From NCBI RefSeq assembly GCF_050250295.1, contig NZ_JBFWOX010000012.1: 64,000 nucleotides of DNA; one strand, written 5' to 3'. The notes beneath the pieces are model-generated. The model made no database searches, had not been told where the DNA came from, and worked only from the letters and a program-made list of their open reading frames with translations. This document shows, one piece after another, positions 30,180 to 59,852 of the stretch. The position numbers and the translations under genes are program-made. Every line of letters begins with the position of its first letter. Position 1 is the stretch's first letter. The DNA comes from Mycolicibacterium sp. GTDB lineage: Bacteria; Actinomycetota; Actinomycetes; Mycobacteriales; Mycobacteriaceae.

Positions 30180-30242
30180 CGCCGAAATTGCATTCCAGCA
30201 GGAAAAGTTCGAGTGGCGCCCTGCTGGAATGCAATTTCGGCG
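30180..30242 (-). repeat. 63-bp REP-like palindromic element, copy 1 (loop inverted relative to copies 2-4)
   Basis: Arms are CGCCGAAATTGCATTCCAGCAG and CTGCTGGAATGCAATTTCGGCG. The 19-nt loop is GAAAAGTTCGAGTGGCGCC. It lies between the convergent thiolase and TetR genes. Confidence 0.95.
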
Positions 30243-30257
30243 AAATGGGGGGACCTG

Positions 30258-31004
30258 TCAGCGTTTGCGCGCGGTGCTCTTGGTGGCCTTGCGGGCGGGT
30301 TTGGCGCTCGTCCCGATGAGCCGTTCGGCGTGACCGAGGATGCACTGCAGGCCGAACTCGAAGTTGCGGTCGTCCGGCGCGCTCAGGTGGTGGCCCTCCC
30401 GGGTGACCGCGGCCAGCAGCGGCGCGCTCTGCGGATCGAACGCCATCGTCTCGTCGATGTCGCCGTGGGCGTCCTCGCCGGCCAGGTTCTTGTCCCGCAG
30501 CCGCTGCAGCACCACCGAACCACGCACGTGCACCGAGATCGCCGAGTAGGTGTCGAAGGCGTCGTCGGGTGAGAGACCCGCCTCGACCAGGCTGCCGATC
30601 GCCTTCTCCACCTCCTGCGCGCCCACTTTCGCCGCGCGCGGGCTCAGCGCCGAGCGGATCAGGATCAGGTCGGCCAGGATCGGGTTGCCCAGGAAGGTCT
30701 CTCGCATCGAGCGGGCGTGATTGGCCAACGTCTCGCGCCAGTCCTTGGCCTCGACGTAGGGCGTGGCGAAGGCGTACTGACTCAACGCGCGGTCGGTCAT
30801 CGCGTTGAGCAGGTCGTCCTTCTTGCGGAAATACCAGTAGATGCTCGTGACGCCGACACCGAGGTGCTTGCCCAGCAGCGGCATGCTCAGGTTGTCGATG
30901 CCGACCTGCTCGGCCAGTTCGAAGGCGCCCTTGATGATGTCGTCGGGGTTGATGGATCCGCGTTCGCGCCGTGGCCGCTTCTGCGCGGCCGCCTGCTTCG
31001 CCAC
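30258..31004 (-). CDS. TetR/AcrR-family transcriptional regulator
   Basis: GTG start. HTH motif LSMPLLGKHLGVGVTSIYWYFRKKDDLL. Lys/Arg-rich C-terminal tail. Confidence 0.9.
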   Translation of the reverse strand: MAKQAAAQKRPRRERGSINPDDIIKGAFELAEQVGIDNLSMPLLGKHLGVGVTSIYWYFRKKDDLLNAMTDRALSQYAFATPYVEAKDWRETLANHARSMRETFLGNPILADLILIRSALSPRAAKVGAQEVEKAIGSLVEAGLSPDDAFDTYSAISVHVRGSVVLQRLRDKNLAGEDAHGDIDETMAFDPQSAPLLAAVTREGHHLSAPDDRNFEFGLQCILGHAERLIGTSAKPARKATKSTARKR

Positions 31005-31247
31005 TGTCGGGCACCTCCATCGTCTCGATGCTGCGTGAGCAGCCGCCGAAGCGGCATAGTAGTCCTGCGTCCGGCGACAGCGGCCACGCTGGCCTGCAGC
31101 TTTGCCGCCGCGTCGCGGTGTCCCCGCGTCCGCGACCTTACCGTCGGGGTGCGGACCGGCCGCTGCGGTCAGCGTTCCGCCCTTTTACCGTAAGTCCTAT
31201 AGTAAGTTTTTCCGGCATCGGCGACATCGGAAGGTGAAGGGCGACAG

Positions 31248-32009
31248 GTGGCAGACGAGGTTCTACTGGAACGCCGAGACCGGGTGCTGATCATCACGAT
31301 CAACCGTCCGGAGGCGCGCAACGCGTTCAACCTCGCGGTGGCGCGGGGGCTGGCCGACGCCATGGACGAACTCGACGACACCCCCGAGCTGTCGGTGGCG
31401 ATCATCACCGGGGCCGGCGGTAACTTCTGCGCGGGCATGGATCTCAAGGCGTTCATGGCCGGCGAGGTGCCCGCCATAGAGGGTCGCGGCATCGGCTTCA
31501 CCGAACGGCCCCCGCGCAAACCGGTCATCGCTGCGGTGGAGGGTTACGCGCTCGCCGGTGGCACCGAGATCGTGTTGGCCACCGACCTGATCGTGGCGGC
31601 CAGGAACGCGAAGTTCGGCATCCCCGAGGTGAAGCGGGGGCTGGTGGCCGCCGGCGGCGGACTGCTGCGGCTGCAGAAGCGGATTCCCTACCAGAAGGCG
31701 CTCGAGCTCGCGCTCACCGGCGACAGCTTCACTGCCGAGGAGGCATCGGCGTGGGGCTTCGTCAACGTGCTGACCGAACCCGGCGAGGCGCTGGACGGCG
31801 CGCTGGCGCTGGCCGAACGCATCACCGCCAACGGGCCGCTCGCGGTGGCCGCCACCAAGGAGGTCATCGTCAAGTCGGCAGACTGGACCGAGGCCGAGAT
31901 GTGGAAGAAGCAGGGCGAGATCGTCTTCCCGGTCTTCTCGTCCAAGGATGCCAGGGAGGGCGCGACGGCGTTCGCCGAGAAACGCAAGCCGAACTGGACG
32001 GGGTCCTGA
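31248..32009 (+). CDS. Enoyl-CoA hydratase
   Basis: GTG start. Motifs ITINRPEARNAF, FCAGMDLK, GYALAGGTEIVLATD. Confidence 0.9.
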   Translation: MADEVLLERRDRVLIITINRPEARNAFNLAVARGLADAMDELDDTPELSVAIITGAGGNFCAGMDLKAFMAGEVPAIEGRGIGFTERPPRKPVIAAVEGYALAGGTEIVLATDLIVAARNAKFGIPEVKRGLVAAGGGLLRLQKRIPYQKALELALTGDSFTAEEASAWGFVNVLTEPGEALDGALALAERITANGPLAVAATKEVIVKSADWTEAEMWKKQGEIVFPVFSSKDAREGATAFAEKRKPNWTGS

Positions 32010-32028
32010 CCGGCCCACGCACCGCCGA

Positions 32029-32826
32029 ATGGACCTGGGCCTGCGGGACGCCACCGCCGTCGTCGTCGGCGGCGGCAGGGGCATGGGCCTGGCCGCCGCG
32101 CATTGCTTCGCCGACGATGGGGCGCGCGTCGCGCTGATCGGCCGGTCCCGCGAGGTGCTCGACGCCGCCGCTGCCCAACTGCGGCAGCGGGGCAGCCCGG
32201 ACGCCGTCGGCGTGGTCGCCGACATTGCCGATGAGGCGGCCGTCGAGCGGGCCTTCGCCGCGGTGGCCCGGCGGTGGAACGGTGAGCTGAACATCCTCGT
32301 CAACGCCGTCGGCCCGGCGGTGCGGGGCAGTTTCGACGACCTGTCCGACGCCGACTGGACCCGGGCCGTCGACGAGGGCGCGATGGGCATGGTGCGCTCC
32401 GTGCGGGCCGCGCTGCCGCTGCTGCGGGCCGCGGAATGGGCGCGCATCGTGAACTTCTCCGCCCACTCGACCCAGCGCCAGAGCGTCATCCTGCCGGCCT
32501 ACACCGCGGCCAAGGCGATGGTCACCAGCATCTCGAAGAACCTGTCGCTGCTGCTGGCCCGCGATGAGATCCTGGTCAATGTGGTGTCACCGGGCAGCAT
32601 CGCCTCCGAGGCGCTGGTGGGCTGGGCCGAGTCGGTGGGTATCGACGGTTCCGATCCGTACGCGTTGATGTCGGCGATCGACGAGCATTTCGGCCATCCC
32701 GCGCACCTGCCGCGCGCGGGTCTGCCGGCCGAGATCGGCCCCGTGGTGGCGTTCCTGGCGTCCCGGCGCAACTCCTACATGACGGGCGCGAACGTCAACG
32801 TCGACGGCGGCAGTGACTTCACCTGA
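32029..32826 (+). CDS. SDR-family oxidoreductase
   Basis: ATG 32029 lies within ORF 31948..32826. Motifs VVVGGGRGMGLAAA, YTAAKAM. Confidence 0.8.
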   Translation: MDLGLRDATAVVVGGGRGMGLAAAHCFADDGARVALIGRSREVLDAAAAQLRQRGSPDAVGVVADIADEAAVERAFAAVARRWNGELNILVNAVGPAVRGSFDDLSDADWTRAVDEGAMGMVRSVRAALPLLRAAEWARIVNFSAHSTQRQSVILPAYTAAKAMVTSISKNLSLLLARDEILVNVVSPGSIASEALVGWAESVGIDGSDPYALMSAIDEHFGHPAHLPRAGLPAEIGPVVAFLASRRNSYMTGANVNVDGGSDFT

Positions 32827-32988
32827 CGGAACCGCGGTTCTGAGGATGGATATCGGTGTAGTGCAACGACTTTCGCCATCGGTGTGCCGGCCCGACCCGG
32901 GCCGGCGTACCACCAGGACGAGCACCTGCCCGAGCCATTACCGATAGGTGTACAGTATGGGCATCTATCAGGCGGAGGAGGTCTGTCG

Positions 32989-33816
32989 GTGGGTGCTGTC
33001 GATCGGGCCGCGGAGCCGGTCCTGTTCGATCTGCGCGACAGCGGCGTCGCGGTGCTGACGCTGAACCGTCCGGAGCGGATGAACGCCTGGGGTGGCGGTC
33101 TGGCCCACGCCTTCTACCGCTGCATCGACCGTGCCGAGGCCGACCCCGCCGTCCGGGTCATTGTGCTCACCGGCAACGGCCGGGCGTTCTGCGCCGGCGC
33201 CGACATGGGCGACTTGGACACGATCGGCGAAGCCACGGAATCCAGCGACACCGACGTCACCCAGCTCGTCGGGGAACGGCACCCGCACTTCGTCACCGAA
33301 CTGCGCACGCCGCTGATCGCGGCCATCAACGGGGCGTGCGCCGGGATCGGGCTGACGCAGGCGCTGATGTGCGACGTCCGCTTCGCCGCCGCCGGCGCGA
33401 AGTTCACCACCGCGTTCGCCCGCCGCGGTCTGATCGCCGAGTACGGCATCTCTTGGATCCTGCCGCGGATCGTCGGGTGGGGCGCCGCGCAGGACCTGCT
33501 GCTGTCCGGACGTACCTTCTCCGCCGAGGAGGCCAAGGCGCTCGGCCTGGTCAAGGACGTCGTCGCGGCCGAACACCTGATGACGCACACGCTGGCCTAC
33601 GCCGAGGACCTGGCCCGCAACTGCGCCCCCAGCTCCCTGGCGGTGATCAAGAGCCAGCTCTACCGGGACGCGTCGCGAAACCTGCACGACGCCAGTGCCG
33701 ATGCGGAGAAACTGATGCACGAGTCGATGCTGCGCCCTGACTTCATCGAGGGCATCACCGCCTTCTTCGAGAAGAGACCGCCGAATTTCCCGCCGCTGAA
33801 GGAGGACACGCCGTGA
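32989..33816 (+). CDS. Enoyl-CoA hydratase/isomerase family
   Basis: GTG 32989 is preceded by GGAGGAGG. Motifs LTLNRPERMNAW, FCAGADMG, GACAGIGLTQALMCD. Confidence 0.85.
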   Translation: MGAVDRAAEPVLFDLRDSGVAVLTLNRPERMNAWGGGLAHAFYRCIDRAEADPAVRVIVLTGNGRAFCAGADMGDLDTIGEATESSDTDVTQLVGERHPHFVTELRTPLIAAINGACAGIGLTQALMCDVRFAAAGAKFTTAFARRGLIAEYGISWILPRIVGWGAAQDLLLSGRTFSAEEAKALGLVKDVVAAEHLMTHTLAYAEDLARNCAPSSLAVIKSQLYRDASRNLHDASADAEKLMHESMLRPDFIEGITAFFEKRPPNFPPLKEDTP

Positions 33817-35051
33817 CAGCGGACCAGCCCCTGGACTACCAGGCGATCGACGTGGACAACCACTACTACGAACCGCTCGACGCGTTCACCCGGCACCTGC
33901 CCAAGGAGTTCCGCAGCCGCGGGGTGCAGATGCTCACCGACGGCAAGCGCACCTACGCCGTGTTCGGCGGTGTGGTCAACCACTTCATCCCGAACCCCGC
34001 GTTCGACCCGATCATCGAACCCGGTTGCCTGGACCTGTTGTTCCGCGGGGAGATCCCCGACGGTGTGGACCCGGCGTCGCTGATGAAGGTCGACCGGCTG
34101 GCCGATCACCCCGAGTACCAGAACCGCGACGCCCGGGTGGCCATCCTCGACAAGCAGAACCTCGAAACCGTGTTCATGCTCCCGACATTCGCCTGCGGCG
34201 TGGAGGAAGGCCTCAAGCGCGACATCGAGGCCACCATGGTGTCGCTGCACGCGTTCAACCTGTGGCTCGACGAGGACTGGGGATTCAACCGGTCCGACGG
34301 CCGGATCCTGGCCGCGCCGATCATCTCGCTGGCCGATCCCGAAAAGGCCGTGGACGAAGTCGAATTCGTGCTGGACCGGGGCGCCAGGATCGTCTGCGTG
34401 CGGCCCGCGCCGGTACCCGGGGCGGTCAAGCCGCGTTCCCTCGGCGACCCGGCGCACGACCCGGTGTGGGCACGGCTGGCCGAGGCCGGGGTGCCGGTGG
34501 TGTTCCACCTCTCCGACTCCGGCTACATGGCGGTCCCGGCGCTGTGGGGCGGCAGCGGCGTGTTCCGCGGTTTCGGCAAGCGTGACCCGCTCGACATGGT
34601 GCTCATGGACGACCGCGCGATCCACGACACCCTGGCCTCGATGATCGTGCACCAGGTGTTCACCCGGCATCCGGACCTGAAGGTGGCCAGCATCGAGAAC
34701 GGCTCCTACTTCGTCCACCGGTTGATCAAGCGGCTGAAGAAATCCGCCAACACCGCGCCCTACCACTACAAGGAAGACCCGGTCGAGCAGCTCAAGAACA
34801 ACGTCTGGATAGCGCCGTACTACGAGGACGACGTCAAGCTGCTCGCCGACACCATCGGGGTGGACAAGATCCTGTTCGGCTCGGACTGGCCGCACGGTGA
34901 AGGCCTGGCCGACCCGATGGCGTTCACCGCCGACATCCCGCAGTTCCCCGAGTTCAGCGCCGAGGACACCCGAAAGGTCATGCGCGACAACGCCCTCACC
35001 CTCGTAGGCAGCTCCATGGCTTCTGTTCCCCTTCGCAGCGGTGGGGCCTGA
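33813..35051 (+). CDS. Amidohydrolase_2 (ACMSD/metal-dependent hydrolase) family protein
   Basis: GTGA overlap with the echA stop. IDVDNHYYEP near the N-terminus and FGSDWPHGEG near the C-terminus. Confidence 0.75.
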   Translation: MTADQPLDYQAIDVDNHYYEPLDAFTRHLPKEFRSRGVQMLTDGKRTYAVFGGVVNHFIPNPAFDPIIEPGCLDLLFRGEIPDGVDPASLMKVDRLADHPEYQNRDARVAILDKQNLETVFMLPTFACGVEEGLKRDIEATMVSLHAFNLWLDEDWGFNRSDGRILAAPIISLADPEKAVDEVEFVLDRGARIVCVRPAPVPGAVKPRSLGDPAHDPVWARLAEAGVPVVFHLSDSGYMAVPALWGGSGVFRGFGKRDPLDMVLMDDRAIHDTLASMIVHQVFTRHPDLKVASIENGSYFVHRLIKRLKKSANTAPYHYKEDPVEQLKNNVWIAPYYEDDVKLLADTIGVDKILFGSDWPHGEGLADPMAFTADIPQFPEFSAEDTRKVMRDNALTLVGSSMASVPLRSGGA

Positions 35052-35053
35052 CG

Positions 35054-36667
35054 GTGCCGGAGTGGACCATCGGCGGTGTCGTCGACGCCATCGCCGACGC
35101 GGTACCGGACCGGCTGATGACGGTCTGCGGAGCGCGCAGGAGCACCTACGCCCAGACCGCGGAGCGCACCCGCCGGCTGGCGAACTTCCTGAGCGCCAGC
35201 GGTATCGGTGCCCACCGGGAGCGCGACGGTCTGCACGGCTGGCAGTGCGGGCAGGATCGGGTCGCGCTGATCATGCACAACGACCTGTACCCGGACATGG
35301 TGATCGGCGCGCTGAAGGCCCGCGCGGTGCCGGTCAACGTGAACTACCACTACACCCCGAGAGAAGTCGACGAACTGCTGGCCTATCTGCGGCCGCGGGC
35401 GGTCATCGCGCACCGGTCGCTGGGTGCGAAGTTCGCCGACGTCCTGCCCGGTGCCGGGGTGGACCTGATGATCTCCATCGACGACGGCGGCGGCGCGCCC
35501 GAGCCCAGCGGTGCGGTGTCCCTGGACGACGCGCTGGCCGCCGGCGGCGTCGACCGACCGATCGCGCCGTCACCCGACGACGTGATGATGATCTGCACCG
35601 GCGGCACCACCGGCCGGCCCAAGGGCGTGATGTGGCGGCAATCCGACACCTACGTCGTCTCGATGAACGGGGCCGACCACGAGTCGGTCGACGAGATCGA
35701 CGCCAAGGTGGCGCACGCCGGTCCGCCGTGGTTCGCGGTGTCCCCGCTGATGCACGCCGCCGGGATGTGGACGGCCTTCGCGGCGCTGCTGAGCGGGCAG
35801 ACCGTGATCCTCTACGACAGGCCGACGCTGGACGCGGCGGCGGTGCTCGAGACCGCCGAACGCGAGCAGGTCGGGCTGATGACGATGGTCGGCGACGCGT
35901 ACGCCGCGCCGCTGATCGCCGAACTGCGCCGCCGCCCTTACGATCTGTCGTCGCTGTTCGCCATCGGGACCGGCGGGGCGGCCACCAATCAGCGCCACCA
36001 GGACACGTTGCTCGAACTGCTCCCGAACATCACGCTGATCAACGGCTACGGGTCCTCGGAGACCGGGAACATGGCGTTCGGGCGCAGCGTGCGCGACGAC
36101 CGCAAGGAGACCTTCGAGCGGCGGGACGGGGTGGTGGTGCTGTCCGAGGACCGCAGCCGGTTACTGCGGCCGGGCGAGCGTGAGGTCGGCTGGGTGGCGC
36201 GCGAAGGGCGGATACCGTTGGGCTACTTCGACGATGCCGAGGCCACCCGCGGCACCTTCCCCGAGGTCGAGGGCCGTCGCGTGGTGATCTCCGGGGACCG
36301 GGCGGCCCTGGAGGCCGACGGCACGCTGCGGCTGTACGGGCGGGATTCGCTGGTGGTCAACACCGGTGGGGAGAAGGTGTTCGTGGAGGAGGTCGAGGAG
36401 GTGCTGCGCGCACAGGGCGGCGTCGCCGATGCGCTGGTGGTCGGGCGCGACAGCGACCGCTGGGGGCAGGAACTCGTCGCGCTGATCGAACCGCAGCCGG
36501 GTGTCGACGTCGACCCCGATGCGCTGCGGCTCGCCTGCACGACCGCGCTGGCCGGGTTCAAGGCCCCCAAGGAGTTCGTCGTGGTCGACAGGGTGCGCCG
36601 CCTGGGCAACGGCAAGGCGGACTACCGCTGGGCCAAGGGCCGGGTGGCCGTGGTGGGGCAGCCATGA
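35054..36667 (+). CDS. Acyl-CoA synthetase (FadD-like AMP-binding enzyme)
   Basis: Motifs MICTGGTTGRPKGVMW, NGYGSSETG, VVNTGGEKVF, GNGKADYRWAK. Confidence 0.9.
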   Translation: MPEWTIGGVVDAIADAVPDRLMTVCGARRSTYAQTAERTRRLANFLSASGIGAHRERDGLHGWQCGQDRVALIMHNDLYPDMVIGALKARAVPVNVNYHYTPREVDELLAYLRPRAVIAHRSLGAKFADVLPGAGVDLMISIDDGGGAPEPSGAVSLDDALAAGGVDRPIAPSPDDVMMICTGGTTGRPKGVMWRQSDTYVVSMNGADHESVDEIDAKVAHAGPPWFAVSPLMHAAGMWTAFAALLSGQTVILYDRPTLDAAAVLETAEREQVGLMTMVGDAYAAPLIAELRRRPYDLSSLFAIGTGGAATNQRHQDTLLELLPNITLINGYGSSETGNMAFGRSVRDDRKETFERRDGVVVLSEDRSRLLRPGEREVGWVAREGRIPLGYFDDAEATRGTFPEVEGRRVVISGDRAALEADGTLRLYGRDSLVVNTGGEKVFVEEVEEVLRAQGGVADALVVGRDSDRWGQELVALIEPQPGVDVDPDALRLACTTALAGFKAPKEFVVVDRVRRLGNGKADYRWAKGRVAVVGQP

Positions 36668-36692
36668 CCCAGAATGTGAGCATGGGGCAGCC

Positions 36693-37532
36693 ATGACCCA
36701 CCGCGTCATCGATTGCCTGGTCAATGTCCACTTCGGTGAGACCGCCAGCCAACCCGACTACATGCTCAAGGTCCGCGACGACTACTTCAAGGGTCCGCAG
36801 TCGCTCTACGACCAGGTCGAACTGCCGGCGCTGCTCGACGAGATGGCCGAGCACGGTGTCGAGAAGGCCATCCTGATGGACAACCTGGCCAAGCCGTCGG
36901 TTACCGCACGCAAGTTCGTCGACGAGCGTCCGGACAAGTTCGCGCTGGCGGTCGGCGGGATCGACCTGCTGCGCCCGATACCGTCGCTGCGCGAGCTGTC
37001 GTCCATGGTCGCCGATCTGCCCATCGCGTATGCCGTTGTCGGGCCGAGTTTCTGGGGCGACGGGGCGTACCCGCCCAGCGACGCCGTCTACTACCCGCTC
37101 TACACCAAGTGTGCCGAGCTCGGGCTGCCGCTGTGCATCAACACCGGACTGCCCGGCCCGCCGATCCCCGGCGAGGTGCAGAACCCGATCCACCTCGACC
37201 GGGTGTGCGTGCGCTTCCCCGAGTTGAAGCTGTGCATGATCCACGGCGCCGACCCGTGGTGGGAGCTGGCGATCCGGCTGCTGATCAAGTACGCCAACCT
37301 GCGGATCATGACCTCGGCGTGGTCGCCGAAACGGCTGCCGGAGAGCCTGCTGCATTTCATGCGCACCCGCGGCGCGAACAAGGTGATCTTCGCCTCCGAC
37401 TGGCCGGTGCTGCGGCAGAGCCGCGTCGTGCCCGAGGCGCTGGCGCTGGAGCTGCCGCCCGAGGTGCTCGACAAGTACCTGTACCACAACGCCGACACGT
37501 TCTTCTTCAGCCGCGCAGAACAGGAGACCTGA
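36693..37532 (+). CDS. Amidohydrolase_2 family protein
   Basis: ATG 36693 lies within ORF 36501..37532. Motifs MTHRVIDCLVNVHF, MIHGADPW, FASDWPV. Confidence 0.75.
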   Translation: MTHRVIDCLVNVHFGETASQPDYMLKVRDDYFKGPQSLYDQVELPALLDEMAEHGVEKAILMDNLAKPSVTARKFVDERPDKFALAVGGIDLLRPIPSLRELSSMVADLPIAYAVVGPSFWGDGAYPPSDAVYYPLYTKCAELGLPLCINTGLPGPPIPGEVQNPIHLDRVCVRFPELKLCMIHGADPWWELAIRLLIKYANLRIMTSAWSPKRLPESLLHFMRTRGANKVIFASDWPVLRQSRVVPEALALELPPEVLDKYLYHNADTFFFSRAEQET

Positions 37533-37534
37533 CC

Positions 37535-38575
37535 GTGGACCGGTACGAACTGCGCAGGCTCGACTACAGCCTGTCCGAGGACCATCAGGCGCTGCAAGCC
37601 GCCTACAAGGACTTCTTCGCTACCCACTGCAGCATCGAGACCGTGCGCGCGGCCGAGGGGTCCGGGGTCGACAAGAACCTCTGGGAACGGTTGTGCGCCA
37701 TGGGCGCGACGACGATGGCGGTACCGGAATCCGCCGGCGGGGACGGCGCCACCCTGGTCGACCTGACCCTGGTCGCCGAGGAACTCGGCCGGGCGCTGGC
37801 GCCGGTGCCGTGGATCGACCACGTCTGCGCGGCACGGCTGTTGGCCCGGTTCGGCGCCGCCGACGCCGACGTCGTCACCGGTACCCGGCTGGTGTCCCTG
37901 GATCCACAGCAGCACAACACATCCGGGATCCGGCTGATCCCGGCGGGCTCGGTGGCCGACCACATCGTCGTGCGCGAGGGGGACGAGGTGGTGCGGCTGA
38001 CGTTCTCGACGCGGCCGGCCGGGGTGGACAACATCGCCAAGCTGCCGATGGCGTGGGTGGACCCGGCGGGCGCGGATGCCCGCACGGTGCTCGCCGCCGG
38101 GCCCGACGCGCTCGCCGAATATCAACGCGCCCTGGACGAGTGGCGGCTGCTGACCGGTGCCGCGCTGGTCGGCCTGGTCGAGGCGACCATGACGATCGCG
38201 GCGGAGTTCGCCAAGACCCGCTACACCCTGGGTGTACCGATCGCCACGCTGCAGGCCATCTCCCATCCCCTGGCCAACATCGCGATCACCGTGTCGGCCG
38301 GTCGCAATCTGGCCCGCCGGGCGGCGTGGTTCCTCGACAACGAACCCGAGGAGCGCCGCGAGCTCGCGCCGTCGGTGTTCGTGTTCATGGCCGAGGAAGC
38401 GGCCAAGGCGGCCACCATGGCCGTCCACGTCCAGGGCGGTCTCGGGGTGTCGGCGGAGGCCGCCGCGACCGCCTACCTGGTGCGGGCCCGCGGCTGGCCG
38501 CTGGCCGGCGGTGATCCTGGCGTCGTCGCCGCCTATCTCGCCGGGATCGTCGCCGAACGCGAAGGACAGGACTGA
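37535..38575 (+). CDS. Acyl-CoA dehydrogenase-like protein, short partner subunit
   Basis: GTG 37535 follows CAGGAGA and lies 2 nt after the preceding stop. It has an ACAD-like fold (PESAGGDGATLVDL, FAKTRYTLGVPIATLQAISH) but no YEGT-type motif. Confidence 0.7.
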   Translation: MDRYELRRLDYSLSEDHQALQAAYKDFFATHCSIETVRAAEGSGVDKNLWERLCAMGATTMAVPESAGGDGATLVDLTLVAEELGRALAPVPWIDHVCAARLLARFGAADADVVTGTRLVSLDPQQHNTSGIRLIPAGSVADHIVVREGDEVVRLTFSTRPAGVDNIAKLPMAWVDPAGADARTVLAAGPDALAEYQRALDEWRLLTGAALVGLVEATMTIAAEFAKTRYTLGVPIATLQAISHPLANIAITVSAGRNLARRAAWFLDNEPEERRELAPSVFVFMAEEAAKAATMAVHVQGGLGVSAEAAATAYLVRARGWPLAGGDPGVVAAYLAGIVAEREGQD

Positions 38576-38578
38576 GCA

Positions 38579-39769
38579 ATGGATTTCGGGCGGGTACCGT
38601 TGTCCGACGAGGACCAGAGGTTCCAGGACGAGGTCCGGTCGTTCCTCGCCGAGATCGTCACCGAGGACGTGATCCGCCGGGACCGCGAGACCGGGGACAA
38701 CTTCGACGAGGGCGTCCACCTCGCGCTCGGGGCGGCCGGCTACCTGGACCGGGACTGGAACCCCGCCTCCGCGCGGCCGTTCACCCGGCTGCAGCGGCGC
38801 ATCTGGGAGCTGGAGAAGCGCCGCGCCCATGTGCCGTGGGTGACGTCGGGGACCACGGCGATGATCGCCAGGTCCGTCGAGAAGTTCGGCTCGGCGGACC
38901 TCAAGGACGAAGTGCTGCCGCGGGTCTACAGCGGGCACGTGCGGCTCTGCCTGGGCTACACCGAACCCGAGGGCGGCTCCGACGTGGCCACCTGCAAGAC
39001 CCGCGCGGTCCGGGACGGGTCGGGCTGGGTGATCAACGGGTCGAAGATGTTCACCACCGGCGCGCACAACTGCCAGTACGTCTTCCTGATCACCAACACC
39101 GACCCGAGCGCGCCGAAACACAAGAGCCTCACCATGTTCCTGGTTCCACTAGCCTCGCCCGGCATCGAGATCCAGGGCATCCGCACCGTCGACGGGGACC
39201 GCACCAACATCGTCTACTACAGCGACGTCCGCGTCGACGACCGCTACCGGCTCGGCGCGGTCAACGACGGCTGGACGGTGGTACGCGAACCGCTCAACGC
39301 CGAACACGGGGCGGTGGAAGCGGCCGACGACGGCCTGGCCGACGTGTCGATCATGACGCACCAGGCGATGTTCATGGCCGACGCGGTGGACAAGGCCGCC
39401 GCCCGGTCGACCGTCGCGGACCCGAACGGGCGCAGGCTGCTCGACGACGGTGCGGTGGCCTACCGGCTGGGGCGCAGCGTGGCCCGGCTGGAGGCGTCGC
39501 TGTCGGCGCCGTCGATCTTCGGCAGGGTGGCGCTGGCCCAGACGATGCGCGACATCTCACCCGATCTGATGGACATCCTGGGCGCGGCGTCGGCGCTGCC
39601 GCAGGGCACCGACGGCGCCGCCGACGACGGCGCGTCGGAGTACATCTACCGGTTCGCGCCGCTGGTGGGTATCTACGGCGGCACGCTCGAGGTGTTCCGC
39701 AACATGATCGCGCAGTACGTCCTGGGCCTGGGCAAGCCGAGCTACGCACCCCCGGCGGCCAAGACGTAG
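38579..39769 (+). CDS. Acyl-CoA dehydrogenase family protein (pair partner)
   Basis: Starts 3 nt after the previous stop. Motifs GYTEPEGGSDV, GSKMFTTG. The terminal motif IYGGTLEVFRNMI has Gly at the canonical Glu position. Confidence 0.85.
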   Translation: MDFGRVPLSDEDQRFQDEVRSFLAEIVTEDVIRRDRETGDNFDEGVHLALGAAGYLDRDWNPASARPFTRLQRRIWELEKRRAHVPWVTSGTTAMIARSVEKFGSADLKDEVLPRVYSGHVRLCLGYTEPEGGSDVATCKTRAVRDGSGWVINGSKMFTTGAHNCQYVFLITNTDPSAPKHKSLTMFLVPLASPGIEIQGIRTVDGDRTNIVYYSDVRVDDRYRLGAVNDGWTVVREPLNAEHGAVEAADDGLADVSIMTHQAMFMADAVDKAAARSTVADPNGRRLLDDGAVAYRLGRSVARLEASLSAPSIFGRVALAQTMRDISPDLMDILGAASALPQGTDGAADDGASEYIYRFAPLVGIYGGTLEVFRNMIAQYVLGLGKPSYAPPAAKT

Positions 39770-39776
39770 CGGTTCT

Positions 39777-39839
39777 CGCCGAAATTGCATTCCAGCAGAG
39801 GGTTACTCGAACTTTCGCTGCTGGAATGCAATTTCGGCG
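39777..39839 (+). repeat. 63-bp REP-like palindromic element, copy 2
   Basis: Same 22-bp arms as copy 1. Loop AGGGTTACTCGAACTTTCG. Starts 7 nt after the ACAD stop and is followed by a G-run tract. Confidence 0.95.
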
Positions 39840-39875
39840 GGGAGGGGGTGGGGCTCAGAGGGCGGGGAGGGGGGC

Positions 39876-44588: not shown

Positions 44589-44651
44589 CGCCGAAATTGC
44601 ATTCCAGCAGGCCTTTACTCGAACTTCCTCTGCTGGAATGCAATTTCGGCG
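44589..44651 (+). repeat. 63-bp REP-like palindromic element, copy 3
   Basis: Same arms as copy 1. Loop GCCTTTACTCGAACTTCCT. Lies between the convergent Mo-oxidoreductase and CoA-transferase genes. Confidence 0.95.
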
Positions 44652-48920: not shown

Positions 48921-50396
48921 ATGGCAGCACCGTTCGACGACCGCCGCCACCCGGGCACGCTCACGGCCGCCGTCGAACACCAGCGCCGGGCATTCGTCGC
49001 CGACGGCCCACCGGATGCCGCCCTGCGCCGCAACCGGATCGATCGGCTGCTGGCTCTAGTGCTGGACAACACCGACGACTTCGTCGACGCGATGGCAGCC
49101 GACTTCGGCACCCGGCCGCGCGCCGGGTCGCTGTTCGCCGAGATCATGGGCATGCTCTCGGTCATCGAGCACACCAGAGCCCATGTGCGGCAATGGATGA
49201 AACCCGTCACGGTGCTGCCGGTGGCACGCCCGTTCGGGCTGCGCGGCGAGGTGCATCCGTCGCCGCTGGGCGTGGTCGGGATCATCGGGCCGTGGAACTT
49301 CCCGGTGAACCTCGTCATCCTGCCCGCCGCAGCGGCTTTCGCCGCGGGCAACCGCGTGATGATCAAGATGTCGGAGGTCACCCCGCGCACCGCCGAGTTG
49401 ATGAAGACCCTGGCGCCCGCCTACTTCGACCCCGCCGAACTGACCGTCGTCACCGGCGACGCCGAGGTCGCGGCCCGGTTCGCGGCGCTGCCGTTCGACC
49501 ACTTGTTCTTCACCGGGTCGCCGCGCGTCGGGGCGCTGGTCGCGCAGGCCGCCGCGGCGAACCTGGTGCCGGTGACCCTCGAGCTGGGCGGCAAGAACCC
49601 GGTGGTGGTGTCGCCCCACGCCGATCTGCACCGCGCCGCCGCGCGCATCGCGGCCGCCCGCATGATCAACGGCGGGCAGGTGTGCGTGTGCCCGGACCAC
49701 GTCTTCGTGCCCGCCGGCAGGGTCGAGGCGTTCGTGGCCGTCGCCCGCGACACGTTGCGCGGCATGTTCCCGTCGATCCTGGCCAACGACGACTACTGCT
49801 CGGCGGTCGACGAGGCCAACTTCGACCGGATCGTCGGCCTCGTCGAAGACGCCCGCGCCAAGGGCGCCCGGGTCGAGACCGTGGCACCGCCGCACGAGGT
49901 GCTGCCGGACCGCAACACGCGCAAGATCGCGCCCACGCTGCTGCTCGACGTCGACGACAGCATGCACATCGCCGACGAGGAGACCTTCGGGCCCGTCCTG
50001 ACCGTGCGCCCCTACACCGAGCTGCGCGATGTCGTCGACTATCTCATCGCACGCCCGGCCCCGCTGGTGGCCTACTGGTTCGGTCCGGACGACGCCGACT
50101 TCCGGACCTTTGTGTGCCACACCCGCAGCGGCGGAGTGGCCCGCAATGACTTTGCCGCCCAGATGATTCCGTCGGCGGCGCCGTTCGGCGGCGTCGGCCG
50201 CAGCGGCACGGGCGCCTACCACGGCAAGGCAGGCTTCGACGCGTTCAGCCACTACCGCACGGTCGTCGGCAGCGATCTGCCGGTCACGATCACCGGCCGC
50301 GCGGCACCGCCGTTCACCCCGGTCACCCGCATCGGCACCGCCCTGAGCCTGCAGCTGGCGCGGCGCCGGACCCGGCGGCGGCTCAGGACGCGGTGA
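48921..50396 (+). CDS. Aldehyde dehydrogenase (coniferyl-aldehyde dehydrogenase-like subfamily)
   Basis: ATG follows GGAGG. Motifs ELGGKNP, INGGQVCVCPDHVFV, PFGGVGRSGTGAYHG. Confidence 0.9.
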   Translation: MAAPFDDRRHPGTLTAAVEHQRRAFVADGPPDAALRRNRIDRLLALVLDNTDDFVDAMAADFGTRPRAGSLFAEIMGMLSVIEHTRAHVRQWMKPVTVLPVARPFGLRGEVHPSPLGVVGIIGPWNFPVNLVILPAAAAFAAGNRVMIKMSEVTPRTAELMKTLAPAYFDPAELTVVTGDAEVAARFAALPFDHLFFTGSPRVGALVAQAAAANLVPVTLELGGKNPVVVSPHADLHRAAARIAAARMINGGQVCVCPDHVFVPAGRVEAFVAVARDTLRGMFPSILANDDYCSAVDEANFDRIVGLVEDARAKGARVETVAPPHEVLPDRNTRKIAPTLLLDVDDSMHIADEETFGPVLTVRPYTELRDVVDYLIARPAPLVAYWFGPDDADFRTFVCHTRSGGVARNDFAAQMIPSAAPFGGVGRSGTGAYHGKAGFDAFSHYRTVVGSDLPVTITGRAAPPFTPVTRIGTALSLQLARRRTRRRLRTR

Positions 50397-57441: not shown

Positions 57442-58479
57442 ATGGGTGCTGGAGGCGGCCTGAAGGTGGACGCCGGCGTCGTCAGTCAACTAACCGCAGT
57501 TCCGGGCGCCGCGAGCACGCTGGAGCGGCGCGGCTACGACGGCTGCTGGACCGCCGAGATCAACCACGACCCGTTCCTGCCGCTGACGCTGGCCGCCGAG
57601 CACACCAGCACCATCGAGCTCGGCACCAGTATCGCGGTGGCGTTCGCCCGCACCCCGATGACAGTGGCCCAGATCGGCTGGGACCTGCAGGAGTACTCGC
57701 GCGGCCGGTTCCTGCTCGGGCTCGGGTCGCAGATCAAGCCGCATGTGGAGAAGCGGTTCAGCATGCCGTGGGGCTCACCGGTGGCGCGGATGCGGGAGTT
57801 CGTGGCGGCGCTGCGGGCGATCTGGGCGTGCTGGCGCGACGGCGACCCGCTGGATTTCCGCGGCGAGTTCTACACGCACACGCTGATGACGCCGATGTTC
57901 ACCCCGTCGGCCCACCCCTACGGCGACCCCGAGATCTTCCTGGCCGCGGTCGGGGACCGGATGACCGAGATGTGCGGCGAGGTCGCCGACGGTCTACTAA
58001 CACATGCGTTCTCCACCCGGCGCTATCTCGAGGAGGTGACCCTGCCGACGCTGCGGCGCGGTCTCGAGAGGGCCGGGCGGCGGCGCGAGGACGTGCAGGT
58101 GGCCAGCCCGTTGTTCGTCGTGACCGGCCGCGGCGAACAGGAGCTGGCGGCGGCCGCGGCGGCGACGCGTAAGCAGATCGCGTTCTACGCCTCCACCCCG
58201 GCCTACCGCGGCGTGCTGGAGCTACACGGGTGGGGTGAGCTGCAGGCCGAGCTGCACCGGCTCTCCCGCCGAGGCGACTGGGACCCGATGGGCTCGCTGA
58301 TCGACGACACCATGCTCACCGAATTCGCGGTCGTCGCCGTCGTCGACGAGTTGGTGCCGCGGATCCGGAGCCGGTGCGACGGCCTGATCGACCGTGTGCT
58401 GGTGGGGTTTCTGTCATCCATCGACGAGGCGACCGTCGCGGAGGTCGTCGCACAACTGCAAGCTGGGGAGGCGCAGTGA
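57442..58479 (+). CDS. Luciferase-like monooxygenase class, probably F420-dependent oxidoreductase
   Basis: Motifs LERRGYDGCWTAEINHDPF, RFLLGLGSQ. The start is uncertain (ATG 57442 or a downstream GTG). Confidence 0.8.
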   Translation: MGAGGGLKVDAGVVSQLTAVPGAASTLERRGYDGCWTAEINHDPFLPLTLAAEHTSTIELGTSIAVAFARTPMTVAQIGWDLQEYSRGRFLLGLGSQIKPHVEKRFSMPWGSPVARMREFVAALRAIWACWRDGDPLDFRGEFYTHTLMTPMFTPSAHPYGDPEIFLAAVGDRMTEMCGEVADGLLTHAFSTRRYLEEVTLPTLRRGLERAGRRREDVQVASPLFVVTGRGEQELAAAAAATRKQIAFYASTPAYRGVLELHGWGELQAELHRLSRRGDWDPMGSLIDDTMLTEFAVVAVVDELVPRIRSRCDGLIDRVLVGFLSSIDEATVAEVVAQLQAGEAQ

Positions 58480-59714
58480 CCGTTCGCATTGCCGACGAGG
58501 CGGCCAGGGTCTTCACCGACCCCAGCGCATACGCCGACGAATACCGGCTACATGCCGCGATGACGCATCTGCGCGCCCACACCCCGGTCGCGTGGGTGGA
58601 GGTCGAGGGCTACAACCCGTTCTGGGCCATCACCAAGCACGCCGACATCATGGCCATCGAACGCGACAACACCGTCTTCACGAACTCCCCCCGGCCGGTG
58701 CTGACGACGGCCGAGGGCGACGCTCAGCACGCCACCATGGGGGTCAGCACGCTGATCCACATGGACGACCCGCAGCACCGCAAGGTCAGGGCCATCGGCG
58801 CGGACTGGTTCCGGCCAAAGGCCATGCGGGCGTTGAAAGTTCGCGTCGACGAACTGGCCGCCACGTTCGTCGACCAGATGGGTGCGCGCGGCGGCGAGTG
58901 CGACTTCGCGCAGGAAGTCGCCGTGAACTTCCCGCTGTACGTCATCATGTCGCTGCTCGGCATCCCCGAATCGGACTTCGGGCGGATGCTGACCTACACC
59001 CAGGAGCTGTTCGGCAACGACGACGCCGAACTGCAACGCGGCGCGAGCATGGAGGAGCGCGGGCTGGCGCTGTTCGACATGTTCACCTACTTCAACGAAC
59101 TGACCGCGGCCCGGCGGGCTCGGCCCACCGACGACCTGGCGTCGGCCATCGCCAACGCCCGCATCGACGGTGAACCCCTGTCCGACATCGACACGGTGTC
59201 CTACTACCTCATCGTCGCCACCGCGGGCCACGACACCACCAGCGCGACGATCTCGGGTGGGCTGCAGGCGCTGATCGAGCACCCCGACCAGCTGGCCCGC
59301 CTGCAGCAGGATCCGGACCTGCTGCCGCTTGCGGTCGAGGAGATGATCCGGTGGGTCACGCCGGTCAAGGAGTTCATGCGAACGGCCCAGCGCGACACCG
59401 TGGTTCGCGGGGTGGAGATCGCGGCGGGGGAGTCGGTGCTGCTGTCCTACCCGTCGGGTAACCGCGACGAGGACGTGTTCAGCGACCCCTTCCGGTTCGA
59501 CGTCGGGCGTGACCCCAACAAGCACATCGCGTTCGGGCACGGGGTGCACTTCTGTCTGGGTGCGGCGCTGGCGCGCATGGAGATCCACAGCTTCTTCGCC
59601 GCGCTGCTGCCTCGGCTGACCGCAGTGGAGCTGGCCGGGCCGCCCGAGCACGTGGCGACGGTGTTCGTCGGCGGGCTCAAACACCTCCCGATCCGCTACA
59701 CCCTGACCGACTGA
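58476..59714 (+). CDS. Cytochrome P450
   Basis: GTGA overlap with the LLM stop. Motifs VATAGHDTTS, EEMIRW, and heme loop FGHGVHFCLGAALAR. Confidence 0.9.
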   Translation: MTVRIADEAARVFTDPSAYADEYRLHAAMTHLRAHTPVAWVEVEGYNPFWAITKHADIMAIERDNTVFTNSPRPVLTTAEGDAQHATMGVSTLIHMDDPQHRKVRAIGADWFRPKAMRALKVRVDELAATFVDQMGARGGECDFAQEVAVNFPLYVIMSLLGIPESDFGRMLTYTQELFGNDDAELQRGASMEERGLALFDMFTYFNELTAARRARPTDDLASAIANARIDGEPLSDIDTVSYYLIVATAGHDTTSATISGGLQALIEHPDQLARLQQDPDLLPLAVEEMIRWVTPVKEFMRTAQRDTVVRGVEIAAGESVLLSYPSGNRDEDVFSDPFRFDVGRDPNKHIAFGHGVHFCLGAALARMEIHSFFAALLPRLTAVELAGPPEHVATVFVGGLKHLPIRYTLTD

Positions 59715-59789
59715 CGCGGCCACCCCGCACGCGCCACGCGCGACCCACTCGCTCGCGCCACGCGCGCCCACTCGCTCGCGCCCACCTCG

Positions 59790-59852
59790 CGCCGAAATTG
59801 CATTCCAGCAGGGCCTCACTCGAACTTTCGCTGCTGGAATGCAATTTCGGCG
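59790..59852 (+). repeat. 63-bp REP-like palindromic element, copy 4
   Basis: Same arms as copy 1. Loop GGCCTCACTCGAACTTTCG. Preceded by a 23/24-bp tandem duplication at 59731-59777. Confidence 0.95.

What the first reader, a model, noticed from the sequence alone, without database searches (positions are those of the whole stretch)
30180..59852. Four copies of a 63-bp perfect-stem REP-like element, exclusively at convergent gene junctions
The copies lie at 30180-30242, 39777-39839, 44589-44651 and 59790-59852. All have identical 22-bp arms (CGCCGAAATTGCATTCCAGCAG / CTGCTGGAATGCAATTTCGGCG) and a 19-nt loop with the invariant core ACTCGAACTT. Loop conservation gives the element polarity: copy 1 is inverted relative to copies 2-4. 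Each copy starts 7-75 nt after one stop codon and ends 15-55 nt before the convergent stop. Three other convergent junctions (23203/23207, 47565/47566, 50383-50396) have no spacer at all and no element. This fits a bidirectional terminator or mRNA-stabilising hairpin spread as a REP/MITE. The conserved loop suggests a protein recognition site, such as a RAYT-like transposase or a nucleoid protein. I do not recognise the family by name.
Basis: partly seen in the sequence, partly recalled or inferred. Interest (0 to 1): 0.65.

Follow-up and report, generated by a model that had tools for sequence, protein, structure and literature searches.

The report
Mycobacterial 63-base hairpin repeat family
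The four repeats are real copies of a 63-base hairpin element found about 80 times in this Mycolicibacterium genome and, with other stem sequences, across the mycobacteria including M. tuberculosis; it behaves like the REP and TRIT repeats that sit at gene ends, but it is a separate family and appears to have its own partner gene, a predicted DNA-cutting enzyme that is itself bracketed by these hairpins.

Summary
The window holds four 63-bp copies with identical 22-bp arms, all between convergent genes. The whole genome (7.28 Mb draft) holds 77 such copies, every one with a 19-nt loop.

Genome-wide, 51% lie at convergent junctions, 36% at tandem junctions and 5% at divergent junctions. "Exclusively convergent" is therefore true only of the window.

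The element belongs to a family restricted to Mycobacterium in the broad sense (152 of 201 genomes sampled, M. tuberculosis H37Rv included). The architecture is fixed: a 22-bp stem, and a 19-nt loop with a polar core YWCTCGnnYTT centred on the dyad. The stems differ between species, with compensatory changes.

The family is not TRIT. TRIT proper (GCAGACGCA...TGCGTCTGC) has 69 or more copies in H37Rv and none here. It is not a RAYT-type REP either, because the genome has no Y1 transposase. It makes no target duplication and has no U-tract.

Loop polarity is random with respect to transcription and replication. Arms are uniform within a genome while loops are diverse. An IS3-family insertion sequence inserts only into the 3' arm.

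A gene for a winged-helix plus DUF559/Vsr-like nuclease is bracketed by family hairpins at five or more loci in 13 genomes, H37Rv included.

Best reading: a REP-like selfish hairpin element with a new kind of partner nuclease, which gives transcripts a strong 3' hairpin. No RNA data could be obtained.

The parts
30180..30242 (-). Hairpin element copy 1: 22-bp arms, 19-nt loop. The CTCG loop strand is the minus strand. It lies between the convergent genes 28981-30156 (+) and 30258-31004 (-).
   Evidence: RNA fold -52/-50.5 kcal/mol. R1 model score 89.8 bits (G000:C12:132675-132737).
39777..39839 (+). Hairpin element copy 2, between the convergent genes 38579-39769 (+) and 39876-41021 (-).
   Evidence: At the syntenic junction two congeners (G031, G030) have no hairpin and two others (G026, G032) have a TRIT-type hairpin.
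44589..44651 (+). Hairpin element copy 3, between the convergent genes 42362-44560 (+) and 44698-45921 (-).
   Evidence: The same junction in Mycolicibacterium sp. CR10 (L063) carries an element with that species' arms and the loop flipped.
59790..59852 (+). Hairpin element copy 4, between the convergent genes 58476-59714 (+) and 59908-61215 (-). Its loop GGCCTCACTCGAACTTTCG is identical to those of three copies at unrelated loci.

Best explanation
The 63-bp unit is the local, recently expanded subtype of a hairpin-repeat family found only in mycobacteria. It is a REP-like, non-autonomous selfish element.

Shown:
- A fixed 22-bp stem / 19-nt loop architecture.
- A polar loop core (YWCTCGnnYTT) conserved across the genus, while stems are replaced with compensatory changes.
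- Gain and loss at gene junctions without target-site duplication.
- Strong accumulation just after stop codons.
- Arms that are nearly identical within a genome and species-specific between genomes.

Inferred mechanism:
- A DNA-level process that reads the loop and hairpin copies the element and keeps the arms uniform.
- The best candidate enzyme is the winged-helix plus DUF559/Vsr-like (PD-(D/E)xK) nuclease. Its gene is bracketed by family hairpins of the genome's own subtype wherever it was examined. The 1.16-kb unit hairpin-gene-hairpin carries the same 22-bp termini as the 63-bp element. This relationship is analogous to REP-RAYT or MITE-IS.
- Copies persist where a very stable hairpin is harmless or useful, namely at transcript 3' ends and above all between convergent genes.
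- There the RNA forms a -46 to -52 kcal/mol hairpin on either strand. This most likely defines or protects 3' ends, as an exonuclease block or RNase III substrate, and does not act as a canonical U-tract terminator.
For: Family and copy number:
- 77 copies, all with a 19-nt loop.
- 80 CTCG-centred 22/19/22 hairpins against 0-2 for control tetramers.

Position:
- 67 of the 71 classifiable copies have a gene 3' end on at least one side. Convergent junctions hold 51% of copies but are 16.5% of all junctions; divergent junctions hold 5%.
- Convergent gaps without the element also tend to hold strong hairpins: 54% reach -35 kcal/mol or lower, against 15% of divergent gaps.

Structure:
- 94.3% of cells are paired. 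53 cells carry a change on both sides, against 19.8 +/- 3.3 in shuffles.

Range:
- 152 of 201 genomes of the genus have a match.
- Across the order, only this genus has real matches: 9 of 9 sampled genomes, against two single weak hits in 56 other genera.
- H37Rv and other slow growers have the same geometry and loop core with unrelated stems.

Mobility:
- Clean empty sites exist in G000 where other species carry the element, with no target duplication.
- Four G000 copies at unrelated loci have identical loops. There are 9 identical pairs against about 0.5 expected (the expectation is my own arithmetic).

Arms versus loops:
- Pairwise difference is 2.1% in the arms and 33.5% in the loops.
- At shared junctions the arms follow each species' own variant.

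DNA-level reading of polarity:
- Loop orientation is random with respect to transcription (14:14 at tandem sites) and replication.
- Yet an IS3-family insertion sequence lies in the 3' arm at all 9 junctions that show the loop.

Partner gene:
- The gene is bracketed by family hairpins in G000 C60, M. vanbaalenii, M. gilvum, M. parafortuitum, M. brisbanense, M. frederiksbergense, sp. 236, H37Rv, G160 and G063. Two further genomes have an upstream hairpin only, and two have related hairpins with another loop.
- The stop codon lies inside the downstream hairpin at a fixed position.
- The D...EYDGxQH motif is invariant.
- The predicted fold resembles AbiEi/Rv2827c and the I-Bth0305I homing-endonuclease domain.
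Against:
- Published work found little overlap between TRIT-type hairpins and mapped termination sites in M. tuberculosis (bioRxiv 10.1101/2022.06.01.494293) and showed that mycobacterial RNA polymerase needs a U-tract (PMC3993855).
- The link to the nuclease gene rests on association only.
- The gene sits at conserved loci and looks vertically inherited, so it may be simply another gene with hairpins at its ends.
- The structure model is of modest quality (pLDDT 71, pTM 0.48) and the fold matches have E-values above 0.001.
- It remains unexplained how the arms stay uniform while the loops diverge. Orthologous copies in some species do let their arms decay.
Confidence: 0.55

Rival explanations
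1. The hairpins are recombination sites, comparable to integron attC or phage att sites. A recombinase crosses over in the conserved loop, gene cassettes such as the DUF559 gene enter and leave at these sites, and the dispersed copies are empty docking sites.
For: At the lhr-nei locus the unit reads [species-type arm, loop, other arm] - gene - [other arm, loop, species-type arm], with both loops in the same polarity. This attL/attR-like pattern is conserved in four species. Eight copies with hybrid arms exist in G000. The architecture, inverted arms around an asymmetric conserved spacer, resembles recombinase core sites.
Against: The hybrid at C12:177744 is syntenic on both sides with an ordinary copy in M. 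austroafricanum, so the arm differs in place without any rearrangement. A 19-nt spacer is far longer than known tyrosine- or serine-recombinase overlap regions (my own knowledge). In sp. 236 the two flanking hairpins are direct repeats of the same hybrid, which does not fit the attL/attR pattern. No recombinase partner was identified. The cassette sits at the same locus in many species.
Confidence: 0.15
2. The hairpins are purely host-owned 3'-end hairpins (terminators or stabilisers) with no mobility enzyme. They arise and are kept uniform by template switching or gene conversion between palindromes and by selection for a common RNA-binding factor such as RNase III.
For: Position just after stop codons. 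Convergent gaps generally hold strong hairpins. Other species have a different hairpin at the same junction. RNase III-type processing has been proposed for TRIT (PMC13714241). In several species 63% of junctions are co-occupied.
Against: The loop core is conserved and polar, yet its orientation is random relative to the transcript. An RNA factor reading the loop would therefore see the right strand in only half of the tandem copies. Identical loops occur at unrelated loci, and clean empty sites exist. Mismatches show no G-U bias on either strand. There is no U-tract.
Confidence: 0.15
3. The element is a classical REP/REPIN mobilised by a RAYT (Y1 transposase).
For: General resemblance to REP: extragenic palindromes at gene ends, species-specific sequence, and a target for insertion sequences.
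Against: PF01797 gives no match in a 99.99%-complete genome while six control genomes score. The arms have no GT[AG]G head. Copies are single hairpins, not inverted doublets. There is no replication-strand bias in a complete genome.
Confidence: 0.03
4. The element is a double-stranded DNA binding site for a dimeric regulator or nucleoid protein. The palindromic half-sites are bound by the protein and there is no hairpin function.
For: Perfect dyad symmetry of the arms, and conservation of arm sequence within a genome.
Against: The arms change between species by compensatory pairs while the geometry is kept. In other mycobacteria the stems are entirely unrelated but still pair. The sites avoid promoter-bearing divergent regions. 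A 19-bp asymmetric spacer is unusual for a dimer operator (my own knowledge).
Confidence: 0.05

Closest known systems
REP / REPIN elements with their RAYT genes (Enterobacteria, Pseudomonas)
   Same: Short extragenic palindromes in tens to hundreds of copies at gene 3' ends. The sequence is species-specific. They are specific targets of insertion sequences (IS3-family IS1397 and ISKpn1 insert into REPs; my own knowledge). A single-copy partner gene is flanked by the repeats.
   Different: No Y1 transposase and no GTAG head. The stem is much longer (22 bp, perfect) and the loop is 19 nt with a conserved core. Copies are single units, not inverted doublets. The candidate partner is a winged-helix plus DUF559/Vsr-like nuclease.
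TRIT, the Tuberculosis Rho-independent terminator motif (Gardner et al. 2011, PMC3152330; PMC13714241)
   Same: Same genus range. About 64 nt, palindromic and therefore bidirectional, placed at or over stop codons, and without a U-tract. Both families coexist in many mycobacterial genomes.
   Different: TRIT proper is a different sequence family. I identified it from the hairpin after M. tuberculosis sucD. It has a conserved outer stem GCAGACGCA...TGCGTCTGC and a variable, itself palindromic centre. It has 69 or more copies in H37Rv and none in this genome. The present family has a conserved loop and interchangeable stems, with only about 8-20 copies detected in H37Rv.
MITEs and their parent insertion sequences (for example Correia elements of Neisseria)
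   Same: Terminal inverted repeats. A longer unit (1,163 bp, G000 C60:25046-26208) carries the same 22-bp termini and a gene. Copies are scattered in intergenic DNA. Correia transcripts are cut by RNase III (PMC13714241).
   Different: No target-site duplication. The gene in the longer unit is not a known transposase. That unit is single-copy and sits at a conserved locus.
Integron attC sites
   Same: Hairpin-forming sites defined by structure more than by sequence. They abut or overlap the 3' end of a cassette ORF. They are uniform within a species.
   Different: No integron integrase or cassette array was seen. The sites are dispersed among core genes. The conserved part is the loop, not extrahelical bases.

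Membership tests
REP/REPIN-RAYT | A cognate Y1 (IS200/IS605-like, PF01797) RAYT gene is present in the genome. | tested here: not met
   0 matches in G000 (99.99% complete). The same search scored in 6 control genomes.
REP/REPIN-RAYT | A conserved GT[AG]G tetranucleotide at the 5' end of a 20-40 nt imperfect palindrome, often arranged as inverted doublets. | tested here: not met
   The arms start CGCCGAAATT. The unit is 63 bp with a perfect 22-bp stem, and copies are single.
REP/REPIN-RAYT | Extragenic, high copy number, species-specific sequence. | tested here: met
   77 copies. Exact arms are rare in other species, which carry their own compensated variants.
TRIT (Gardner 2011) | Matches the TRIT sequence/structure motif of M. 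tuberculosis. The published consensus appears only in figures, so I used the hairpin after sucD, which PMC13714241 calls a TRIT. | tested here: not met
   The sucD hairpin is GGGCGAGCAGACGCATAAGCCCCCGCACGCTCGGCGTGTCGGGGGCTTATGCGTCTGCTCGCCC. This type has 69 copies in H37Rv against 6 for the control pattern and 0 in G000. Arm and loop sequences are unrelated to the window element, apart from a central CTCG.
TRIT (Gardner 2011) | Restricted to Mycobacterium; palindromic; at gene termini. | tested here: met
MITE of a DDE insertion sequence | Terminal inverted repeats together with a target-site duplication. | tested here: not met
   Inverted repeats are present, but there are no direct repeats at the flanks of 77 + 99 copies, and complementarity or identity at the flanks is no higher than base composition predicts. 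Empty sites show no duplication.
MITE of a DDE insertion sequence | A parent element with the same termini that encodes a transposase. | tested here: inconclusive
   A 1,163-bp unit with the same 22-bp termini exists. Its protein is AbiEi_1 + DUF559/REase_MTES_1575, not a known transposase.
Canonical intrinsic terminator | A GC-rich hairpin followed directly by a 7-9 nt U-tract. | tested here: not met
   The flanks are G/A-rich on the 3' side. The consensus scan finds no terminator-like site at any of the three copies inside the scanned stretch 29000-46000; the fourth copy (59790-59852) was not scanned, but its 3' flank shows no T run.
Integron attC | An adjacent IntI tyrosine recombinase, an attI site and a cassette array. 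| not tested
   No array-like arrangement was seen. The copies are dispersed over 40+ contigs. No integrase search was run.
IS3 family (the insertion sequence that targets the element) | About 1.2-1.5 kb, an orfA plus an orfB with an rve DDE domain, and a 3-4 bp target duplication. | tested here: met
   1,498-bp copy in M. austroafricanum (L169). OrfB matches PF00665 at E = 3e-16. The duplications are TGG and TGA. The typical TG...CA ends are not evident.

The most novel reading that the evidence does not exclude
Mycobacteria, M. tuberculosis included, may carry a REP-RAYT-like system built on a different enzyme. In this reading a single-copy gene for a winged-helix (AbiEi-like) plus DUF559/Vsr-EDxHD-type nuclease is the enzyme that recognises the conserved loop of the 63-nt hairpins. 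The gene is bracketed by two family hairpins and its stop codon lies inside the downstream hairpin. In H37Rv it is the ORF at 1197222-1198082, probably Rv1073 (that name is from memory). The enzyme would spread the hairpins and keep their arms uniform. The 63-bp elements would then be the collapsed ends of that unit. This would be a second, independently evolved class of domesticated, hairpin-associated nuclease.
Probability: 0.4. Interest if true: 0.85.

Novelty: new variant of a known kind. Interest (0 to 1): 0.68.

Why it matters
Repeated hairpins at gene ends are a major and poorly understood feature of mycobacterial genomes. How transcripts end in mycobacteria is an open question, because canonical terminators are scarce.

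This work separates a second genus-wide hairpin family from TRIT. The family is defined by a conserved loop, not a conserved stem, and it is present in M. tuberculosis.

The work also gives a concrete, testable candidate for the protein that reads the hairpin: a nuclease gene that is always bracketed by these hairpins.

If the link holds, three things follow:
- REP-RAYT-type systems have evolved more than once, with unrelated enzymes.
- It would explain why these repeats are species-specific.
- It would offer a handle on 3'-end formation, genome plasticity (the element is a dedicated landing pad for an IS3-family element) and strain typing in mycobacteria.

Tried and rejected
- **RAYT/Y1 transposase:** searched for and absent.
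- **Identity with TRIT:** the published papers give no sequence in text and no supplements are held. It is a different family.
- **Rfam:** no family at the gathering threshold. Only sub-threshold microRNA-precursor hairpins appear at permissive settings.
- **Classical MITE with target duplication:** rejected.
- **Insertion into pre-existing palindromes:** flank complementarity is no higher than base composition predicts.
- **Canonical terminator:** there is no T run.
- **RNA-strand-specific selection:** mismatches show no G-U over A-C bias (17 vs 18 in other species, 4 vs 11 in G000), and there is no orientation bias at tandem junctions (14:14).
- **Replication-strand bias, as for IS200/IS605-type elements:** none in a complete genome (16:14 and 5:6). 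The positions of origin and terminus were assumed.
- **Vertical inheritance of loops:** orthologous-position loops are no more alike than random pairs (12.5 vs 12.4 of 19). At this divergence neutral sites are probably saturated, so the test is uninformative.
- **Two different insertion sequences at contig ends:** they turned out to be the two ends of one IS3-family element.
- **Plasmid or phage carriers:** none found.
- **Literature:** searches for a description of this family found nothing.
- **NCBIfam and PDB sequence searches for the nuclease-like protein:** no hits.


Full report
**1. The observation**

The 22-nt arm CGCCGAAATTGCATTCCAGCAG occurs eight times in the window, with no mismatch, as four inverted pairs at exactly the stated coordinates. 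None is expected by chance (sequences). Each pair encloses a 19-nt loop containing ACTCGAACTT, and copy 1 is inverted.

With flanks, each copy folds as RNA at -45.6 to -52 kcal/mol (z = -7.3 to -9.4).

I called genes with a codon-usage caller of my own: 6,472 genes, 90% coding. All four copies lie between convergent stop codons. The window has 11 convergent junctions. The four with gaps of 101-193 nt hold the element. Six have gaps of -14 to 44 nt and no element. One has a 303-nt gap and no element.

**2. The whole genome**

The window is C12:102496-166495 of a 7.28-Mb, 88-contig, 69.3% G+C draft.

- There are 77 complete copies, every one with a 19-nt loop.
- A search that ignores the arm sequence finds 80 hairpins. 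It asks only for CTCG at the centre of a 22/19/22 geometry with at least 18 Watson-Crick pairs. Seven control tetramers give 0-2.
- By context: 39 copies are convergent, 28 tandem, 4 divergent, 3 inside called ORFs and 3 at contig ends. Convergent junctions are 16.5% of all junctions.
- The element is therefore a 3'-end element, strongly enriched at convergent junctions but not exclusive to them.
- Convergent gaps without the element also tend to hold a strong unique hairpin. 54% have a 70-nt window at -35 kcal/mol or lower, against 15% of divergent and 21% of tandem gaps. The element thus supplies what this genome tends to have there anyway.

**3. Conservation pattern**

- Among the 77 copies the arms differ pairwise by 2.1% and the loops by 33.5%.
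- Only CTCG is invariant in the loop. It occupies positions 30-33, so the dyad centre (position 32) falls within it. The pattern around it is G-S-n-n-Y-Y-W-CTCG-n-n-Y-T-T-Y-n-n.
- When copies are oriented by the loop, the 5' arm carries 8 substitutions in all and the 3' arm 28. Eight of the latter are at T46.
- Four copies at unrelated loci share an identical loop, and three others share another. That makes 9 identical pairs against about 0.5 expected from the column frequencies (the expectation is my arithmetic). Faithful copying to new sites therefore does occur.

**4. Range**

All are from Mycolicibacterium or Mycobacterium.
- In those copies the inner arms are the same, but positions 6 and 9-10 change together on both arms: AAATTGC/GCAATTT, AAATGGC/GCCATTT, AAACGGC/GCCGTTT, GGAATTGC/GCAATTCC and others.
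- On a 61-sequence alignment, 94.3% of cells pair. 53 cells have changes on both sides, against 19.8 +/- 3.3 in shuffles.
- A covariance model built on this alignment (R1) matches 152 of 201 genomes of the genus.
- Across the order, R1 matches all 9 sampled genomes of this genus. The other 56 genera give only two single weak hits.
- In slow-grower-type genomes and in M. tuberculosis H37Rv the geometry and the loop core (..TACTCGCACTTTTG..) are the same. I identified H37Rv by 16 IS6110 primer sites and its 4,411,532-bp length.
- The stems there are unrelated, for example CGTTGACTCTGCGTCCACCAGG, CGCCGAGATTGACGTTTTGCAG and CGCCGAGTGAGGAATCCTGCAG.
- The loop, not the stem, is therefore the conserved determinant of the family.

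**5. Not TRIT, not RAYT-REP, not a classical MITE, not a canonical terminator**

- TRIT (PMC3152330) is described as a palindromic motif at gene ends with 147 copies in M. tuberculosis. A recent atlas places the sucD 3' end inside a TRIT and proposes RNase III processing (PMC13714241).
- The hairpin after H37Rv sucD is GGGCGAGCAGACGCATAAGCCCCCG-CACGCTCGGCGTGT-CGGGGGCTTATGCGTCTGCTCGCCC.
- That type (GCAGACGCA-N34-TGCGTCTGC, up to 3 mismatches) occurs 69 times in H37Rv against 6 for the control pattern. It occurs 34 times in G216 and 24 in G160. It does not occur in this genome.
- By contrast, the best-counted subtype of the present family has 8 copies in H37Rv.
- The two families coexist in many genomes. 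At the junction syntenic with window copy 2, G026 and G032 carry a TRIT-type hairpin, while G031 and G030 carry none.
- No Y1 transposase is present.
- There is no target duplication. The flanks are pyrimidine-rich on the left and purine-rich on the right, but they are not complementary beyond what composition predicts.
- No T run follows the hairpin.
- Rfam has no such family.

**6. Gain, loss and arm uniformity**

- For 49 junctions where another species has the element and both flanks map to this genome, 31 also carry an element here and 18 do not.
- Several of the empty sites are clean. G000 reads TGAgTCA where M. austroafricanum reads TGA + 8 nt + the element + 4 nt + TCA.
- At shared junctions the arms follow each species' own variant. 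The loops are no more alike than random pairs (12.5 vs 12.4 of 19). Loop orientation is the same in 22 comparisons and flipped in 9 (by locus: 11 same, 7 flipped, 2 mixed).
- Neutral sites are probably saturated at this divergence (flank identity about 83%). This comparison therefore cannot separate vertical descent with arm homogenisation from repeated insertion.
- Two things point to arms being rewritten in place. First, the rare outer-end variant ..TTTCGCGG of the G000 copy at C1:347623 recurs at the same junction in four other species.
- Second, eight G000 copies are hybrids of one perfect species-type arm and one arm of another type, CGCCGAGATTGCG..CACGCAG. One of these hybrids is syntenic on both sides with an ordinary copy in M. 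austroafricanum.
- In some species orthologous copies do let their arms decay. Uniform arms therefore mark genomes where the family is active.

**7. Loop polarity is read at the DNA level**

- Loop orientation is unrelated to transcription: 14 same and 14 opposite at tandem junctions, 21:18 at convergent ones.
- In a complete genome it is unrelated to replication direction: 16:14 and 5:6.
- Arm mismatches show no G-U bias on either strand.
- An RNA factor specific for one loop strand is therefore unlikely to be the reason the loop is conserved.
- A 1.5-kb IS3-family element does sense the polarity. It has an orfA and an rve-domain orfB (PF00665, E = 3e-16) and makes 3-bp duplications.
- All 16 of its junctions at G000 contig ends lie inside the element, at TTCCA|GCAG. 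All 9 junctions that show the loop lie in the 3' arm.

**8. A candidate partner gene**

- On contig C60 (25046-26208) a 1,163-bp unit has the element's two arms at its outer ends. Inside are two complete hairpins with hybrid arms and a 307-aa gene.
- The protein matches AbiEi_1 (PF09407, precomputed) and, weakly, REase_MTES_1575/DUF559.
- Across homologues D214, E225-Y226-D227-G228 and H231-Q232 are invariant.
- A modest model (pLDDT 71) resembles Rv2827c and AbiEi in its N-terminal part. Its C-terminal part resembles the I-Bth0305I homing-endonuclease catalytic domain, and more weakly TnsA. All of these matches have E-values above 0.001.
- The orthologue lies at the same locus (lhr-nei | mtb12-like) in M. 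vanbaalenii, M. gilvum and M. parafortuitum. There it has the same hairpin-gene-hairpin layout: outer arms of the species type and inner arms of the other type.
- Relatives at a second locus (recR | metallo-beta-lactamase), in M. brisbanense, M. frederiksbergense, DL440 and 21AC1, are flanked by hairpins of those species' own arm types. So is a relative at a third locus (AAA16/GerE | LysR) in sp. 236.
- In G000 the recR-locus paralogue has two hairpins of a rare subtype upstream and none downstream.
- M. chubuense and M. psychrotolerans have related flanking hairpins with a different loop.
- In the rapid growers that have a downstream hairpin, the ORF ends 37 nt into it. The last codons AAG TTC GAG TAA/TAG (K-F-E-stop) are the loop core itself.
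- In H37Rv, two family hairpins 950 bp apart (1197127-1197189 and 1198077-1198139) bracket a 286-aa ORF. This ORF is 41% identical to the G000 protein (E = 2e-70). Its TGA stop is bases 4-6 of the downstream hairpin.
- The same layout holds in G160 and G063, with those genomes' own stem types.
- About 1% of junctions in a genome carry a family hairpin. Finding one on both sides of this gene family again and again cannot be chance.
- This is the arrangement known for RAYT genes flanked by their REPs, and for insertion sequences and their MITEs, but with an unrelated enzyme. The evidence is association only.

**9. Verdict**

The finding is real. It is a member of a previously undescribed (as far as I could search) genus-wide mycobacterial hairpin family of the REP/TRIT kind.

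Settled:
- the anatomy;
- the copy number;
- the placement;
- the covariation;
- the taxonomic range;
- that it is distinct from TRIT;
- that no RAYT is present;
- that an IS3-family element targets it.

Inferred:
- the role as an RNA 3'-end hairpin;
- the DNA-level spread and arm homogenisation;
- the winged-helix/DUF559 nuclease as partner.

I tested that lead independently here.

Noticed in passing
G000 contig ends C5, C23, C24, C26, C31, C32, C44, C45, C50, C52, C55, C60, C61, C64, C69, C88; full copy in L169 (M. austroafricanum DSM 44191, G089:C1:972.9-974.6 kb): A 1.5-kb IS3-family element (orfA plus rve orfB, 3-bp duplication) inserts only into the 63-bp element, at TTCCA|GCAG. At all 9 junctions that show the loop it lies in the 3' arm relative to the CTCG strand, so it senses loop polarity. 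Its body is missing from the assembly and it accounts for many contig breaks.
   Followed up: partly
G000 C60:25046-26208; L189, L191, L193, L196-L201; L202 (M. tuberculosis H37Rv 1197100-1198170); L203; L204: A winged-helix (AbiEi-like) plus DUF559/Vsr-like nuclease gene is bracketed by two family hairpins at several loci and in 13 genomes. Its stop codon lies at a fixed place inside the downstream hairpin. The H37Rv copy is probably Rv1073 (name from memory).
   Followed up: partly
L182 (H37Rv 1063960-1064200); G026/G032 junction in alignment A1; whole genome G000: TRIT proper (GCAGACGCA...TGCGTCTGC) is abundant in M. tuberculosis (69 or more copies) and present in several Mycolicibacterium genomes, but it is completely absent from this genome. 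The 63-bp family seems to fill the same niche here.
   Followed up: yes
G000, all 77 copies (positions within the element): Substitutions are asymmetric: 8 in the 5' arm against 28 in the 3' arm when copies are oriented by the loop. T46 to C recurs in 7-8 copies with unrelated loops. It falls exactly in the TGG triplet that the IS3-family element duplicates, so it may confer immunity to that element.
   Followed up: no
G000 C12:169408-169470, C12:177703-177765, C8:257790-257852, C10:81008-81070, C38:6974-7036, C50:38511-38573: Eight hybrid copies have one perfect species-type arm and one arm of a second type (CGCCGAGATTGCG..CACGCAG). No copy has two arms of the second type. The second type contains CACGCAG, which I recall as a mycobacterial methyltransferase (MamB) motif; I did not check this.
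   Followed up: partly
G000 C1:252905-252967 and C9:189429-189491: Two copies lie inside called ORFs. The 63-bp length is in frame (21 codons) within a 394-aa membrane-protein-like ORF. Another ORF reads through the element to give a new C-terminus. These may be tolerated in-frame insertions or gene-calling artefacts.
   Followed up: no
window 33903-34000 (-): Rfam match to the Mycobacterium sRNA Ms_AS-1 (113.7 bits, E = 1.2e-21), antisense within a coding region.
   Followed up: no
window 15671-15975: This is the only roomy convergent gap (303 nt) in the window that has no copy of the element.
   Followed up: no
G216 (complete 6.0-Mb genome): The 41 model matches cluster at 0-3.3 Mb and 5.4-6.0 Mb. 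None lies between 3.3 and 5.4 Mb, so the chromosomal distribution is uneven.
   Followed up: no
Flanks of all copies (G000 and 99 copies from other species): The four bases to the left of the element are about 80% pyrimidine and the four to the right about 85% purine. The two sides are not complementary copy by copy. This may be a Y-run/R-run target preference.
   Followed up: partly
L171 (G089:C2:577100-579500): A second copy of the IS3-family element sits, with a TGA duplication, inside a different palindrome whose arms face outwards (GATTTCGGCGCG...CGCGCCGAAATC). This suggests that the element targets a wider class of related palindromes.
   Followed up: no
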